Of a stretch of 64,000 bases of DNA, positions 32,777 to 39,768 are shown piece by piece. Where the stretch lies: positions 96,001-160,000 of the IMG/VR virus record IMGVR_UViG_3300028603_000017; one strand, written 5' to 3'. The DNA comes from a virus (Duplodnaviria > Caudoviricetes). The translations under genes and the position numbers were made by a program. Below the pieces are notes generated by a model. The model did no database searches. It was given only the letters and a program-made list of their open reading frames with translations, and was not told where the DNA came from. How positions within the stretch are numbered: the first letter of the stretch is position 1; every line of letters starts with the position of its first letter.

Positions 32777-34835
32777 ATGAGTGATTTCGCAGTTCCCTTT
32801 AATATTTATCTACTAAACCTCACTCCTGATAAGTTAGCAGGTATGATACCTGTGACTTCTTTGGATATATTTGAGGGTATGTCCAGGAATTTACATAATG
32901 ACGGTCTTTTCTCTATACCTATCTTTGGTAGAATCGGCTCTCCAGCTCGCACAAGCCGATATAGCTACATCGATATCAAGGTACCAATATTTCACCCAAC
33001 AATATATCGATCTTTGCTACAACTCAAGAGTCTTTATGGAGAAATCTTACAAGGCAAATCTTACGCTATTTGGAATGATGAAGTAAAAGACTTTGTTAAA
33101 TCATCTCAGTTAGATGGTGAAACAGGGTTTGAGTTCTTTGTTACGCATTGGAAAGATATCGTCTTTGAGTCTAGACCGAGTGACTTAAGAGCTAAAAATA
33201 TTGAGCTAATCGATAAGTACAAAGACATTGCTTTAATGGATAAAGTTATCGTAATGCCTGCTGGCTATAGAGATATTGAGATTGAAGACGATAGAATTAC
33301 CGTAAATGAAATCAACGATCTCTATAAAAAGCTCTTAAGAGTATCCAATACCATCTTACCTATTACAGTAAAAGACGATATTGAAATGCTCAATGGTGCT
33401 AGATACAGTATGCAAAATACATTCAATCAAATCTACGATATGATTGAGTCTATGATCAAAGGTAAGAAAAAGCTCATGATGGGTAAATGGGCTAGCCGTA
33501 AAATCTTTAACGGCACCAGAAACGTGATTACGTCTTCTGATATTCGCTCAGATGAATTAAATGCTCCCAATAACGTAGGTTTTAACGACACTATTTGTGG
33601 TCTATACCAATACATTAAAGCAACCCTGCCTTTAGCTATTGCTAAACTACGTACTGGTTTTCTAAGCAATGTCTTTGTATCTGCACAGTCACCTGCTTAC
33701 TTAACAGATAAAAAGACACTCAAGAAAGTAGAAGTTAAAATAGATAACGATGTCTTTGACAGATGGATGAGTGATGAAGGACTAGAAAAAGTCATTAGTC
33801 TATTTTCAGAAGAATCTATCAGACACGACTATTTAGAAGTCAATGATCACTATATTGGCTTAGTATATAAAGGACCTGGTGTCTTTAAATTCTTCCAAGA
33901 TATAGATGAGTTACCTGAAGAATATAGTAAGGACGATGTTTATCCGATTACTTTCACGGAACTCATTTACGGCTCTGTATACCATGACGCTCATTTATAC
34001 CCAGCTCTAGTGACACGGTATCCTGTCACTGGGTTTGGTAGTATCTATGTCTCTAATATCTATCTAAAGCCTACTCTTAAGGTAGAGAAAAGAGCTCCCT
34101 TAGGAGATGATTGGCAAATAGATCCCTATAAACCTATTGCTTATAACTTTCCTACTAAATCTGATTTCGTAAATGCGATGTCTCCTAGTCCGAGTAAATT
34201 ACAAAATCTCGGAGCTGATAATCGAATGGTATTTTCTTAATTTATTCATAGAACACTATGTTTAAAAGGTATGTTTACGTAAACATATTTGAAACTGTAG
34301 TGGGTTTCAAGAAAATCCAATCGTTTTGTCCTACCTTACAGTAATGTAAGGATAGAATCTCCTTTAATTGCTAGAAAGCCCTTAGAGCTTAACTACCACT
34401 GCGAGCAGTAATGCAAAGCGACAGCTCTACCTAATTGGTAAAGCCATGGTTTGAAAAGTGTTAAGATTGGGTAACCAGCAGCGAAGCTACCCTAATAGGT
34501 AGAACGTTCAACGATCAACCCTTTAGCAAGGTGTACACTCAAGTGAGTGGAAATGGGGAGCTACCTGTTATGCAGGTAGAAGATATGATCTACTCTATAT
34601 GGAAACATATAGCAGGCTATTGTGCCGGACTAAGATTAACGACCTTAGTTGAATACATAGGTTTGATGGAGATACTTGTTCACTAAATATTCTCTATTCT
34701 GATGAAAGTATAAGTGAGACTAGAAAATACATGCAATCTGCTAAGTATTACGTAGGCTCTAATGGTAAGATTAACTTTAGCGCTGAGACTGATACTACTA
34801 AATTCGTTTTACACAATCTAACATCGGATGTTTAA
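32777..34835 (+). CDS. rpoC: Virion RNA polymerase beta' catalytic subunit (phiKZ gp180-like), spliced join(32777..34219,34662..34835), 538 aa
   Basis: DGLFS.PIFG, GTRNVIT and TRYPV motifs. Exon 1 ends ...NLGAD and exon 2 starts FDGDTCS..., restoring the catalytic ADFDGD motif in frame. Confidence 0.9.
34220..34661 (+). ncRNA. Group I intron 1 (IA2-like, 442 nt, no endonuclease ORF) in the DFDGD motif
   Basis: P AATTGCTAGAAA, Q AACCAGCAGC, R GTTCAACGATCA, S AAGATATGATCT (P7 GATCA/TGATC). Exon-terminal U34219 pairs with G34328; terminal G34661; P2 with GTAA loop; P9 hairpin. Confidence 0.92.
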
Positions 34836-37800
34836 TATGGCAGCTCCTGCTATACCCTTTGAGAGTTACTATAGAAAAAACGGCCTAAGATCTCCTCAGT
34901 ATCTGATGGCTCCTAGGATGCCTAGTATTGAAAGCTTCTTTTTCCCTAAAGACTCTATTCACCATTATGTTGTTTATGATGGTGTGTCTAAGCATCCTGC
35001 TAGTGATGAGTACTTTTACAGAGATATTCAAAAGAAGATCTTTGTACAACATATTCCTGATATCAAAGATAATAAAGGCTCTCCTAGAAAATTAGCTATT
35101 CCTGTGATGCCTATGATTAGGGAATTTCACATCAGGAATAAAAGGTTTAGATTACTAGAAAAGCTCTCTAGTGTCAAGGATGAAAATACTTTAGTTACAA
35201 TTAACTATGGTTTTGCTCCTGTAGGATACAAATACGTAAAGTCTTTTTATGCTAACTACTACAAGTGGTGGAATATTGAAAAGACACTTTGGAGTACTTT
35301 AGATAGCATTACCAAAGAAAGTAATCGACAAAACTTTATCTTTACCAACTTACCTAAGACTTTACCTAGTGTATCTCGTCTTAATATGTTTTCTGATACT
35401 TTTAATCAGGAGATGGTAAAGCGGTTTAATACACCCGAATCTCTATTTCTATTAGAGATGTGGAAGTGGCTATCTGCTGAGAATAGAGGTAATTCTATCA
35501 TTGGCAACATGGGTCATAACCAATTAAAGAAAATTAATATTGTCATACAAGAATCTGGACGATATATATTGGTTAATCTAGGTGAGTTAAATAGCTGGAG
35601 AGCAGAAACTACTGATGTACCAGAGCAAAAGATACGGATTGACTCTAGTGCTTTACAAAAGCGATTCCTAAGAATGTTGATGACATTAATGGAAAACCGC
35701 ACTGTAGTAGACGCTCAATTGGTAGATGATGAAGTAGATGGTAATATTCCAGATACACCTATCGATAGCGATCCAGACCTGAGTGATCTAGATAGTCTAG
35801 AAAAAGATACTACCACTCCCACATCTGCACCATATGTAGATACAGATGCAGATATGGTAGCTGGTAAAGGCGATTTTATCAATCTGGATGAGAAAGACAG
35901 TGAAGTTAAAGAATTAACCAAAGCTGAGAAAATCAATGAATTAATTGATAATCTGGATAATGACCTACAGGCATTAGAGATTATTGAAAATGAAAAAGAC
36001 AATATTCTACTGGATGAGGAAATAGAAGATAAGAAGATTTCTAAAGAAATCTCTATCAGTCATTCAGATAAAGCTATTGAATTTGATTTCTTTAATAAAG
36101 AACTCAATCCTGAAGACAGAATTGTTAATCTCTGTAATGAATTAGCTGACGATGGGTTAATGACAGCTAGTGAATATAGGCGTTTAACCAATAATGCTGA
36201 TAATTATAAACGCTTGCCTAGTCCGTACGATAGTGGAAAATCATTAGCTGAATTTGGTGAAATTAAACCAGAAGAGATAGCTATTACTGAATCTGCTAAA
36301 ACAGTAGACAGGAACACCATTATTGATAAGACCATGTTATCATCTAGTCTATTAGACTTTGATGAAAGATACATTAAAAATATCTTACCTAAAGATATTG
36401 TCAATATGGTAACAGCTGCCCAAAATGCTGGATTCATTATATCTAAATACGAAGTAGAGCCTATTGAAGATATTCTAGGTAAATACGAATCTCACACTGT
36501 TCGCATTGCTCCTATTCAAGGTCAACCTAGTACTCTACGATTTAAGATACCTAAGGTTGAGGAAGACGGTGTTTATGTTAGCTCAGGTATCCGCTATAGG
36601 CTTCGTAAACAGCGGTTTGACCTTCCTATTCGTAAGATATCTCCAGATCGTGTTGCTCTATCGTCCTACTATGGTAAAACTCTAGTTACTCGCAGCGATA
36701 AGAAAGTTAATGATTACGGAGCATGGCTATCTAAAAACATAATTGCCAAAGCTATTGATAATACTGATCCTAATGTGATCAACTTATCTGCTGGTGATGT
36801 ATTTGTTAACGATGTAAACTTACCTAGAAGTTATACAGCTATTTCAATGGCTATTAGAGGATTTACCTCTAATGGATTTAACTTTAACTTTGATTATAAT
36901 AATAGAGTTGAGTTCTTTGGTCAGGAAAACATTGACAAGTATGAAAAAAATGGCTATACATTAGTAGCAGATAATGCTACTAATGAGTTTTTGGTCATTG
37001 ATCAAAATAATGTTCTATATAAAGTAGCTAACGATACTTTAGATCCAGTAGGTTCTATTGAATCCTTTATTGGTTTAGATATTGCTAATGCTCCTGTAGA
37101 CTTTGCTCAAATTAAAGTATTTGGCAAAAATATACCTCTGGTATTAATATTGGGCTATATGTACGGATTAGAAAATCTAATCAATGTACTAAAAGCCGAT
37201 GTCCGTAGAGTCTCTAGTGGTCAAAGACAGAATCTGCAAGAACACGAATACGCTATTGCTTTCAGTGATGAAACTCTGATCTTTAGCAAAGATGACGAAT
37301 TAGCTGCTATGATATTCTCTGGTTTTAGAGAATATGCTAAACATATCAGAAATTATTCTGTTTATACTTTCGATAAACCTAACGTTTATTTGAATGTATT
37401 AGAATCTAATGGAATTGGTATTAGGTACTTAAGAGAAGTAGATTTAATGGACAAAATGTTCGTTGATCCTATTACTAAAGAAATTTTAGTAGAGATGAAA
37501 GAACCTACTACTTTCAGAGGCTTGATTGTCAGAGCTGCCCAGCTGCTACTCAAAGACGCTCATCCGGATGCTTTAGATATGCAGTTCATGCGTATTAAGG
37601 GCTATGAGAGATTTGCTGGTGCTATATATGCTGAGTTAGTTAATTCCGTTAGAGAACATAACTCTAAAGCTGGTAAAGCTAATCAACAGATTGAATTACA
37701 TCCTTATGCTGTTTGGAAGAGGATTACGGCAGATCCTAGTATTAACTTAGTATCTGATATCAATCCGATTGAAAACTTAAAACAACAAGAAGCAGTTACT

Positions 37801-39768
37801 TATTCTGGTACAGGCGGTAGAGTATCTCGCTCGATGACAAAATCTTCTAGAGCTTATCACCCTAACGATATGGGTGTAATCTCTGAAGCTACTGTTGATA
37901 GTTCCGACGTAGCTATTAATACCTATACTTCTGCTGATCCTCAATTCGTATCACTACGAGGTAGGGCTAAGAAATATAACTTTGATGAACAAAATCCTAC
38001 TGCTGTACTAAGCACTAGCGCTTTAACTGCTGTAGGTAGTGATAGTGACGACCCCAAGCGCGTATTGACTTGCGCATTCTTCTCTAATTGCTGGAAACCC
38101 CTAAAACTAGTTAAACTACTGCGAGCAGTAATGCAAAGCGAATGTTTAAAAATTAACTAGATGTTACAATGGGCAATCAGCAGCTAAGCTGGCTGTTTAA
38201 CAGGCAGAAAGTTCAACGACTAGTCGAAAGACGTACATTCAATCGAATGGAAATGGGAAGACTACTTATTTAAGTAGAAGATATAGTCTGGCCTATATGG
38301 AAACATATAGCTGCGCGTAATGGCGCGAAACTACGCAATTGTATTAAGTTAAGACATTTAATACATTAGATAACGTAGTTTGAACACTCGCAAAATTTTA
38401 TTAATATTCAGAATACTCATTCGACTGCTTGTAGTGGATATATGCAAGCTCCTGTGCGTACTGGATATGAATCAGTCTTGGGTCAAAGAACTTCTGATCT
38501 ATTTTGTTATTCTGCTAGACAGAAAGGCAAAGTTATATCTAAGAAAGATAATAGTATTCTAATCGAATACGAAGACGGCACTCAAAAAGGAATACAGTTA
38601 GGTAGACGCTTTGGCGCAGCAGCTGGTCTAACTATTGCTCACAATGTTGTTAGCGATATGAAAGTAGGTCAAGAATTCAATCGTGGCGATATCATTGCTT
38701 ATAACGACGGATTCTTTGAAAAGGATATACTCAATCCTGATAATGTTATTTTAAAAAATGCTGTTCTAGCTAAAACCGTTTTATGGGAGTCTACTCAGAC
38801 TCATGAGGACGCTAGCAGTATTTCTAGGAAACTAGCTGATAAGCTTAGTACTAAAATTACTAAGGTCAAACAAGTTGTTATTAGCTTTGAACAAGAAGTT
38901 AAAGATATCTTAAAGCCTGGTAGTGACGTAGAGCATCAAACAATTCTATGTACAATTGAAGATCCCTTGACTTCAGGTGCTGGACTATTTGATGAAAGTA
39001 CTTTATCTACATTAAAAATGTTTAGCAATCAAACACCTCAAGCTAAAACAAAAGGTGTGTTAGAGAAGATTGAAGTTTTCTATAATGGCGAAAAAGAAGA
39101 CATGAGTGACAGCTTAAGAGCATTGGCTGACGCTGGTGATAGAGCTTTGGCTAGTCAATTCAGGTCTTTGGGTAAGCGCCCAATGACAGGTCAGGTAGAT
39201 GAGGGTTACCGTATTGACGGAGATCCTTTACAGTTAGATCACTTAGTTATTAAGTTTTATCTAACGACTGATGTGTCAGCAGGTGTTGGTGATCGACTTG
39301 GTCCTATTTGTTAGTAATAGCAAAATAGATTTCTCCTTAATTGCTGGGAACTCCTACTTCAGTAGGACAATCAGCAGCCGAACTATCTACTTATAGATAG
39401 AGGGTTCAACGACTATCCCCTAACCAGGGAGTACACTCAAGTGAGTGGAAACAGGAGACTGCCTGTATAACAGGCAGAAGATATAGTCTGCTCTGTATAG
39501 TAATATACAGCAGTACCTTATGGTACGGATAAGGATTAACGACCCTTATTGAACACACAGGAAAGGCGTTTTCGCTAATCAAATGAAGACCGTATTCTCT
39601 GAAGTTATGGATTACGAGATGAGAACAGAGTCTGGTGAAGAGATCGATGCTGTTTTCGGACAGAAGTCTATTGATGATCGTATTGTGTTGTCTGCCTTAA
39701 CAATTGGTACAACAAATACACTGCTTGATGTGATTGCTAAAAAAGCAGTCAAGATTTACGAAAGCTAA
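34828..39768 (+). CDS. rpoB: Virion RNA polymerase beta subunit (phiKZ gp178-like), spliced join(34828..38063,38393..39293,39562..39768), about 1447 aa (alternative start 34837)
   Basis: TYSGTGGR, YHPNDMGVISEATVDS, DDPKRV|NFINIQ, QTHEDAS and GD|KGVFANQMKT; the three ORF-track fragments join in frame. Confidence 0.88.
38064..38392 (+). ncRNA. Group I intron 2 (329 nt, lacks P2, no ORF), predicted terminal A instead of G
   Basis: P AATTGCTGGAAA, Q AATCAGCAGC, R GTTCAACGACTA, S AAGATATAGTCT. P1 GCGU/GCGC with U38063.G38072. The exact 3' boundary is inferred. Confidence 0.88.
39294..39561 (+). ncRNA. Group I intron 3 (268 nt, compact, no ORF) in the beta GDK motif
   Basis: P AATTGCTGGGAA, Q AATCAGCAGCC, R GTTCAACGACTA, S AAGATATAGTCT; U39293.G39301; terminal G39561; splicing gives GDKGVFANQMKT. 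Confidence 0.92.

What the first reader, a model, noticed from the sequence alone, without database searches (positions are those of the whole stretch)
38055..38400. Group I intron in an essential vRNAP beta gene that appears to end in A instead of the near-universal omega-G
Seen in sequence: (1) the only canonical P1 puts the 5' splice site after U38063 (G38060-C38075, C38061-G38074, G38062-C38073, U38063.G38072); (2) from there the reading frame is restored only if the 3' exon starts at 38393 (GT|A AAT TTT, giving DDPKRVNFINIQ), so the last intron base is A38392; (3) the 3' ends align with equal length from the conserved GAA: GAATACATAGG (intron 1), GAACACACAGG (intron 3), GAACACTCGCA (intron 2); (4) the P9.0 pair covaries, with J7/9 CT pairing with AG in introns 1 and 3 and GC pairing with GC in intron 2; (5) the 3' exon AA can form P10 with UU38070-38071. 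The P7 G-binding pair is still canonical. Using the nearby G38390 would frameshift into a stop at 38562. Established: terminal G is almost invariant, and a natural omega-A intron is known in Coxiella burnetii 23S rRNA with impaired splicing. Inference: slow or alternative 3' splice-site choice could throttle vRNAP production or need a helper factor.
Basis: partly seen in the sequence, partly recalled or inferred. Interest (0 to 1): 0.9.

Follow-up and report, generated by a model that had tools for sequence, protein, structure and literature searches.

The report
Phage group I intron ending in A
A self-splicing intron in an essential RNA polymerase gene of an uncultured giant phage ends in A where nearly all such introns need a G, yet the gene is clearly still in use, so this looks like a rare natural exception (one other is known, in Coxiella) to a basic rule of this ribozyme class.

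Summary
Window 38064-38392 is a 329-nt group I intron with no ORF (Rfam RF00028, 78.8 bits). It sits in the PhiKZ-gp178-type virion RNA polymerase beta gene of a 261-kb uncultured jumbo phage.

- **Junction:** protein homology leaves exactly one codon (Val) across the gap, split GU|A. The last intron base is therefore A38392.
- **Relatives:** thirteen introns at the same codon in related phages all have G at the homologous place. P1 (U.G after the GU), P10 and P9.0 covary across them. In the window all three helices put the 3' splice site after A38392.
- **Not an error:** nine other assemblies from at least 7 samples carry the same A.
- **Gene in use:** within that population, downstream-exon SNPs are 7 of 10 synonymous in the spliced frame and 1 of 10 in each other frame. 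In-frame splicing must therefore work.
- **Ribozyme core:** the G-binding pair is canonical. The only visible change is a P9.0 of two G-C pairs.

No RNA data could be obtained. A splice shifted by 2 nt (C38061/G38390, giving Gln) is less parsimonious but not excluded. Known precedent: Coxiella Cbu.L1917. As far as I know this would be the first case in a phage protein-coding gene.

The parts
34828..38063 (+). Exon A of the virion RNA polymerase beta gene (PhiKZ gp178 homologue); ends with the first two bases (GU) of a conserved Val codon
   Evidence: tblastn to FLC9/RP12/FLC1-1B/LucasX beta proteins; PHROG 3148 profile 4-1053; phiKZ-like hits annotated as virion-associated; PMC11620839 for gp178 = vRNAP beta
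38060..38063 (+). P1 exon strand; 5' splice site after U38063 (U.G wobble with G38072)
   Evidence: the same 4-bp P1 with covarying guide sequence in 10 same-site introns
38064..38392 (+). Group I intron 2, 329 nt, no ORF, with P7.1/P7.2 (IA-like); last base is A
   Evidence: RF00028 78.8 bits, gathering score 50; boundaries
38070..38075 (+). Internal guide: 38072-38075 pair with the 5' exon (P1); 38070-38071 pair with A38394 and A38393 (P10)
38216..38222 (+). P7 5' strand; bulged C38217; G38218 belongs to the G-binding pair G38218-C38288
   Evidence: cmscan alignment, coordinates; the same arrangement occurs in introns 1 and 3
38284..38289 (+). P7 3' strand
38291..38292 (+). J7/9 nucleotides 2-3 (G, C): P9.0 partners of C38391 and G38390
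38293..38310 (+). P9 hairpin with GAAA loop
38314..38327 (+). P9.1 hairpin
   Evidence: RNAfold of 38311-38392
38328..38381 (+). P9.2, carrying an extra internal hairpin that relatives lack; the only intron SNP in the population (A38337G) lies here
38382..38392 (+). 11-nt 3' tail: 38390-38391 form P9.0, and A38392 sits at the place of omega-G
   Evidence: identical in 9 other assemblies
38393..39293 (+). Exon B; A38393 completes the Val codon; under purifying selection in this frame within the omega-A population
39294..39561 (+). Group I intron 3 (268 nt), ends in G39561
39562..39768 (+). Exon C of the beta gene
   Evidence: the joined CDS is 1447 codons plus a stop with no internal stop
34220..34661 (+). 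Group I intron 1 (442 nt) in the upstream beta' gene, splitting the ADFDGD motif; ends in G34661

Best explanation
Window 38064-38392 is a genuine IA-type group I intron in the virion RNA polymerase beta gene of a jumbo phage, and an A (A38392) occupies the place of the terminal omega-G. The first step is ordinary: exogenous G attacks after U38063 of the U.G pair in P1. For exon ligation, the 3' splice site is positioned by helices rather than by the terminal base. These are a P9.0 of two G-C pairs (G38291-C38391, C38292-G38390), which also ties up the nearby G38390, and a P10 (A38393-U38071, A38394-U38070). Ligation joins GU to A and restores the conserved Val codon.

Shown here: the homologous omega position is A; the A is real and fixed in the population; the downstream exon is translated in the spliced frame.

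Inferred: the junction actually used is U38063|A38393; ligation is slower than in the omega-G relatives; the GC/GC P9.0 partly compensates.
For: - Protein homology leaves exactly one codon across the gap. That residue is Val in 75 of 83 uninterrupted homologue clusters and 61 of 71 viral loci.
- Thirteen other introns at the same codon end in G at the homologous place (12 with boundaries set by protein homology, plus L023 by alignment). So do all 12 classified introns at the neighbouring Asp-Asp site.
- P1 covaries with the exon and keeps the U.G at the GT. The first P10 pair covaries with exon +1.
- The P9.0 register is supported by 33 of 36 pairs against 17 +/- 3 in shuffles, and it places omega at 38392.
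- The closest relative, L023, has G at the aligned position, with the same 11-nt tail length.
- Nine other assemblies from at least 7 samples have the identical tail, with 7-26 SNPs elsewhere in the gene.
- SNPs in exon B are 7 synonymous to 3 non-synonymous in the spliced frame and 1 of 10 synonymous in either other frame. P = 0.001-0.013.
- Relative to L023, both P9.0 positions changed to give two G-C pairs.
- Precedent: the title of Raghavan et al. 2007, cited in PMC3428280, says one Coxiella 23S intron lacks the canonical omega-G. From my own knowledge it ends in A and still splices.
Against:
- The G-binding pair shows no compensating change (G38218-C38288 is canonical). From my own knowledge of Tetrahymena omega mutants, A should bind poorly.
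- G38390 lies two bases upstream.
- The P1 helix slipped by 2 nt is the minimum-energy form in isolation (-7.6 against -4.6 kcal/mol).
- P10 is weaker than in L023.
Confidence: 0.66

Rival explanations
1. Both splice sites are shifted 2 nt upstream. P1 forms in the slipped register (38058-38061 with 38072-75), so cleavage follows C38061 opposite G38072. G38390 then serves as a normal omega-G, and the exons join CGC|CAA, giving Arg-Gln-Asn in frame.
For: - The slipped P1 is 3 kcal/mol more stable in isolation, helped by the AAG Lys codon.
- G38390 is available and the product stays in frame.
- One distant homologue (L219) naturally encodes Pro-Lys-Arg-Gln-Asn-Phe.
- Purifying selection on exon B fits this frame equally well.
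Against: - It needs a C-G pair instead of U.G at the cleavage site, which none of the 10 same-site introns examined has.
- P9.0 would form only 1 of 2 pairs in the family register.
- The first P10 pair would be C.U.
- The tail would be 9 nt instead of 11 nt.
- The C38292/G38390 double change would be left unexplained.
- Gln occurs in only 1 of about 150 homologues.
- L019, an omega-G relative with the same AAGCGCGT exon, also has a non-canonical minimum-energy fold, yet it must splice canonically.
Confidence: 0.13
2. The intron cannot complete exon ligation alone. It depends on a phage or host factor, such as a chaperone or maturase, or on 3' hydrolysis followed by RNA ligase repair. Alternatively most transcripts are mis-spliced at G38390 and only a minority are productive, so vRNAP beta output is throttled.
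For: - The G-binding site is canonical while omega is A.
- A competing G lies 2 nt upstream.
- From my own knowledge, vRNAP is needed only in few copies per virion.
- Protein-assisted group I splicing is common (PMC3984707).
Against: - No ORF lies in the intron and no candidate factor was identified.
- G38390 is sequestered in P9.0.
- Nothing here measures splicing efficiency.
Confidence: 0.12
3. A38392 is a sequencing or assembly error, or the gene is dead in a defective phage.
For: Metagenome-assembled record; an omega-A would be expected to be deleterious.
Against: - The tail is identical in nine further assemblies from IMG, JGI, ENA and Logan samples that differ by 7-26 SNPs in the gene.
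- Synonymous SNPs are in excess in both exon A (23:10) and exon B (7:3).
- The joined CDS has no internal stop.
Confidence: 0.02

Closest known systems
Coxiella burnetii 23S rRNA intron Cbu.L1917 (Raghavan et al. 2007, J Bacteriol 189:6572; cited in PMC3428280)
   Same: A natural group I intron that lacks the canonical omega-G. From my own knowledge it ends in A, has a normal G-binding site, still splices with reduced efficiency, and is fixed in all strains.
   Different: It lies in an rRNA gene of a bacterium, belongs to a different subgroup and sits at a different insertion site. The intron here is in a phage protein-coding gene, where the exact junction sets the reading frame. It has close omega-G relatives at the same site that show the change directly, and a P9.0 strengthened to two G-C pairs.
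PhiPA3 gp210 intron in the vRNAP beta gene (Birkholz et al. 2024, PMC11620839)
   Same: A group I intron in the same gene family (PhiKZ gp178 homologues), in the same conserved active-site stretch.
   Different: The PhiPA3 intron sits immediately after the two Asp codons and encodes an HNH homing endonuclease. The window's intron is 11 nt further downstream, inside the Val codon, and has no ORF. The Asp-Asp site is occupied in 22 of 120 homologue clusters here, and every intron I could delimit there ends in G.
Phage IA2 group I introns (T4 td/nrdB/sunY, Twort orf142)
   Same: Small phage introns with P7.1/P7.2, inserted in conserved codons of essential genes. From my own knowledge, the 3' splice site is set by P9.0, P10 and omega-G. 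Several introns can occur in one gene.
   Different: All of those end in G.
Engineered Tetrahymena omega (G414) mutants and the G264-C311 to A-U specificity switch (Michel 1989; Been and Perrotta 1991; from my own knowledge)
   Same: An A at omega paired with the same nucleoside-binding site that serves both steps.
   Different: In the engineered case A is accepted only when the P7 pair is changed to A-U. Here the P7 pair stays G-C, so there is no specificity switch.

Membership tests
Group I intron (Rfam RF00028) | Conserved catalytic core P3-P9 fits the covariance model | tested here: met
   78.8 bits against a gathering score of 50, full model 1-253
Group I intron (Rfam RF00028) | P1 between the 5' exon and the internal guide, with a U.G wobble at the 5' splice site | tested here: met
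   U38063.G38072; the 4-bp P1 covaries with the exon in 10 same-site introns
Group I intron (Rfam RF00028) | G-binding G-C pair in P7 next to a bulged nucleotide | tested here: met
   G38218-C38288 with bulged C38217, the same as in introns 1 and 3
Group I intron (Rfam RF00028) | Terminal guanosine (omega-G) as the last intron nucleotide | tested here: not met
   A38392 sits at the position that is G in 13 same-site relatives and in the four other introns of this genome
Group I intron (Rfam RF00028) | P9.0 and P10 bring the 3' splice site to the active site | tested here: met
   P9.0 GC/GC and a 2+2 bp P10 in the family registers
Group I intron (Rfam RF00028) | Self-splicing with guanosine in vitro or in vivo | not testable with these tools
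   No RNA data. The indirect evidence is purifying selection on the downstream exon in the spliced frame.
Natural omega-A group I introns (Coxiella Cbu.L1917 type) | A at omega combined with an unchanged G-binding pair, fixed in the natural population | tested here: met
Natural omega-A group I introns (Coxiella Cbu.L1917 type) | Splicing still occurs but is less efficient than in an omega-G revertant | not testable with these tools
   Needs in vitro kinetics of the wild type against A38392G
Subgroup IA (IA2-like) | Extra P7.1/P7.2 hairpins between P7 and P3' | tested here: inconclusive
   Two small hairpins at about 38223-38232 and 38236-38249, read by eye; no subgroup-specific model was run

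The most novel reading that the evidence does not exclude
The intron splices in two in-frame registers: U38063|A38393 through omega-A, and C38061|C38391 through the slipped P1 and G38390. One gene would then yield two vRNAP beta isoforms, Val or Gln, at a residue next to the conserved Asp-Asp-x-Lys-Arg active-site stretch. The ratio would be set by P1 slippage and P9.0 strength. That would be alternative splicing by a group I ribozyme that recodes an active-site-adjacent residue.
Probability: 0.08. Interest if true: 0.85.

Novelty: new member of a known kind. Interest (0 to 1): 0.58.

Why it matters
The terminal G is one of the few near-invariant nucleotides of group I introns, because it occupies the single guanosine-binding site during exon ligation. 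A natural omega-A intron that is fixed in a wild phage population and sits in an essential gene gives a ready-made system for asking how far P9.0 and P10 can replace omega-G recognition. Close omega-G relatives at the very same codon serve as built-in controls.

Three further points follow.
- **Frame as read-out:** every alternative junction has a reading-frame consequence.
- **Expression control:** slow splicing may be used to limit expression of a virion enzyme.
- **Annotation:** all ten assemblies of this phage have the gene called as a truncated 1104-1110 aa ORF plus a 290 aa ORF. A pipeline that insists on omega-G would pick G38390 and predict a frameshift.

Tried and rejected
No read-level or RNA evidence was obtained and read laying was not used.
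- **megablast against phage records** found nothing.
- **PDB sequence search and Pfam** gave no hits for this divergent polymerase.
- **An intron-specific pattern in metagenome contigs** and a spliced-junction pattern covering both candidate junctions in metagenome and viral contigs found nothing.
- **A survey of 120 IMG/VR introns sharing the P9.2 loop module** could not be used to count omega variants. The tail length varies (G at +7, +8 or +9) and exon junctions were not defined there.
- **An automatic classification of L216/L218** picked a false 5' motif. It was corrected.
- **The Coxiella papers themselves (PMC2045182, PMC3187410)** are not held. Details about that intron rest on my memory and on the title cited.

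Readings considered and rejected:
- U38063 joined after G38390 with a +1 ribosomal frameshift or transcriptional slippage. There is no slippery context and the homopolymers are only 4 nt long.
- Independent translation of the 290-aa ORF from M38442. This would lose the conserved Asn-Phe-x-x-Ile-Gln segment.
- Downstream G38411 as omega. The product would be out of frame.

Full report
**What is there.**
The window is G000:C1:96001-160000 of a 261-kb IMG/VR virus record. Rfam finds three group I introns in the window, at 34285-34612, 38007-38310 and 39247-39510, all above the gathering score. Two more lie elsewhere in the genome. The model ends at P9, so the true ends had to come from the host genes.

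The gene from 34828 to 39768 is a jumbo-phage RNA polymerase beta subunit (PHROG 3148, E = 0).
- Its nearest cultured relatives are Burkholderia phage FLC9 and Ralstonia phage RP12, at about 62-64% identity over the 220 residues before the intron.
- phiKZ-like hits are annotated as virion-associated beta.
- The Asp-Asp motif lies at about residue 1075, matching D1072 of PhiKZ gp178, the vRNAP beta subunit (PMC11620839).

**Junction from the protein.**
tblastn of four intron-less homologues aligns their residues continuously. The alignment runs up to the Val encoded at 38062-38064, resumes at 38394, and breaks once more at 39296/39562. The PHROG profile is matched at 4-1053 by exon A and at 1055-1354 by exon B, so one position is missing.

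The only way to supply a Val codon is GU (38062-38063) plus A38393. The intron is therefore 38064-38392 and ends in A. The equivalent reading 38065-38393 also ends in A. The joined CDS is 1447 codons with no internal stop.

**Is Val required?**
- Among the 120 best homologue clusters, 83 are uninterrupted here: Val 75, Thr 7, Ala 1.
- Among 71 viral loci with this motif, the counts are Val 61, Ala 8, Leu 1, Gln 1.
- The single Gln (L219: Pro-Lys-Arg-Gln-Asn-Phe) shows that Gln is not impossible.

**Comparative anatomy of the same insertion site.**
Twelve of the 120 clusters stop right after the GT of this Val codon and 22 stop right after Asp-Asp. I retrieved DNA for same-site introns from Logan, ENA and IMG/VR.
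- L017, L019, L020, L021, L029, L030, L031, L216/217/218, L224, L225, L167 and L215 have both ends.
- L023 and L028 are cut by a contig end.

With boundaries set by the protein, every one of the 12 complete introns ends in G. The closest relative of the window's intron, L023, has G at the aligned position and the same 11-nt tail length.

Three helices behave consistently across the family.
- **P1:** in all 10 introns examined it is a 4-bp helix ending in U.G at the GT, and the guide sequence covaries with the exon.
- **P10:** the first pair covaries with the first exon base, A-U in four introns including the window and C-G in three, with one exception.
- **P9.0:** taken as J7/9 nucleotides 2-3 against omega-1 and omega-2, it forms 33 of 36 possible pairs in 18 introns, with seven paired types among the nine combinations. 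Shuffles give 17 +/- 3 (0 of 5000 reach 33), and sliding omega by 1-3 nt gives 16-19. These introns are related, so the shuffle count is not a probability. The number of different pair types is what makes the register credible.

In the window, P9.0 is G38291-C38391 and C38292-G38390. This places omega at 38392 and ties up G38390. With G38390 as omega, only one of the two pairs would form.

**Not an error, not a dead gene.**
Nine further assemblies carry the identical tail and exon start. They differ from the window by 7-26 SNPs in the 4.9-kb gene and by at most one SNP in the intron, A38337G in the P9.2 insert. Their sources are:
- IMG 3300014206
- JGI 3300044603
- ENA ERZ27247361
- Logan SRR29050547
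- Logan SRR29823645, SRR29823651 and SRR29823655
- Logan SRR28867356 and SRR28867358

All of them have the A, so these SNPs arose on an omega-A background.
- Exon A has 23 synonymous and 10 non-synonymous SNPs.
- Exon B, downstream of the intron, has 7 and 3 in the spliced frame, but only 1 of 10 is synonymous in either other frame.
- With an expected synonymous fraction of 0.22-0.31, the chance of 7 or more synonymous SNPs out of 10 is 0.001-0.013.

The downstream exon is therefore translated in the frame that an in-frame splice gives. This excludes an artefact, a pseudogene, and the frameshifting junction as the productive one. It does not distinguish the two in-frame junctions.

**The ribozyme itself.**
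The P7 pair next to the bulged nucleotide, G38218-C38288, is canonical and identical to that of introns 1 and 3 and of L023. J6/7 and J8/7 are unchanged apart from one J6/7 base. There is no A-U switch of the kind that, from my own knowledge of Tetrahymena work, lets an A be accepted.

The visible difference from L023 is in P9.0. The J7/9 U became C, and omega-2/omega-1 UU became GC, turning a weak P9.0 into two G-C pairs. I read this as compensation, but that is inference. P10 is somewhat weaker than in L023.

**The rival junction.**
Joining C38061 to C38391 also keeps the frame (Arg-Gln-Asn) and would use G38390 as a normal omega-G.
- For it: the P1 helix slipped by two bases is the minimum-energy form of the isolated hairpin (-7.6 against -4.6 kcal/mol). 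In six of the eight introns folded the canonical register is the minimum. L219 shows a natural Gln.
- Against it: a C-G instead of U.G at the cleavage site; half a P9.0; no first P10 pair; a 9-nt tail; an insertion site shifted relative to 13 relatives; and the unexplained C38292 change. L019, an omega-G relative with the same AAGCGCGT exon, also has a non-canonical minimum-energy fold and yet must splice canonically.

I put this rival at about 0.13, and omega-A use at about 0.66. Most of the remainder goes to factor-dependent or mostly unproductive splicing (about 0.12), with about 0.02 for an error or a dead gene.

**What is known.**
The general mechanism and the roles of P1, P10 and omega-G are as reviewed in PMC3984707. 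A natural intron lacking omega-G is on record for Coxiella burnetii 23S rRNA (the title of Raghavan et al. 2007, cited in PMC3428280). The papers themselves are not held. That the Coxiella intron ends in A and splices less well is from my memory.

Group I introns in the vRNAP beta gene of chimalliviruses are known from PhiPA3, inserted after the two Asp codons and carrying an HNH endonuclease (PMC11620839). The window's intron is at a second site 11 nt downstream and has no ORF. I found no report of an omega-A intron in a phage or in a protein-coding gene, but the literature search was limited.

**Verdict.**
The interpretation that the intron ends in A is the most parsimonious one. The mechanism (helix-guided ligation with a poor omega) and any regulatory role remain inferences that need RNA data. 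The finding is a new member of a very rare, already described kind.

Noticed in passing
L167:3151-3829 and L215:3151-4660 (IMG/VR contigs 3300042566_001512 and 3300036546_000129): Both neighbouring insertion sites are occupied at once. One group I intron follows Asp-Asp and a second lies inside the Val codon, leaving an 11-nt mini-exon (CCAAAACGAGT) between two ribozymes. Both downstream introns end in G.
   Followed up: partly
homologues of window 38050-38064: This short active-site stretch of vRNAP beta is an intron hot spot. Of the 120 best homologue clusters, 22 are interrupted right after Asp-Asp (the PhiPA3 gp210 site) and 12 after the GT of the Val codon. All 12 classified Asp-Asp-site introns end in G.
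   Followed up: partly
G000:C1:171309-171773 = L001:1269-1733 (outside the window): Two tandem group I introns lie in another RNA polymerase subunit gene (PHROG 2987). They are separated by a very short exon beginning GATTTTGACGGTGG (Asp-Phe-Asp-Gly-Gly). Both tails end in G. All five introns of this genome therefore lie in RNA polymerase genes.
   Followed up: partly
window 34220-34661: Intron 1 splits the catalytic Ala-Asp-Phe-Asp-Gly-Asp motif of the upstream beta' gene. The 57-codon second exon (34662-34835) is missed by ORF calling. P7 is GAUCA/UGAUC instead of GACUA/UAGUC.
   Followed up: partly
window 38336-38373: P9.2 of intron 2 carries an extra hairpin of about 30 nt in place of the UUAACGA loop module found in introns 1 and 3 and in more than 117 IMG/VR contigs. 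The only intron SNP in the population (A38337G) lies here.
   Followed up: no
L219:4520-4560 (IMGVR_UViG_3300037010_001482): A distant homologue encodes Gln (CAA) where almost all others have Val, directly after an Asp-Asp-site intron. The following bases, CAAAATTTTATT, are identical to window 38391-38402.
   Followed up: partly
window 34828-38160 and 38442-39314: All ten assemblies of this phage have the beta gene called as a truncated 1104-1110 aa ORF that reads 32 codons into the intron, plus a separate 290-aa ORF. The gene is systematically mis-annotated in public protein sets.
   Followed up: yes
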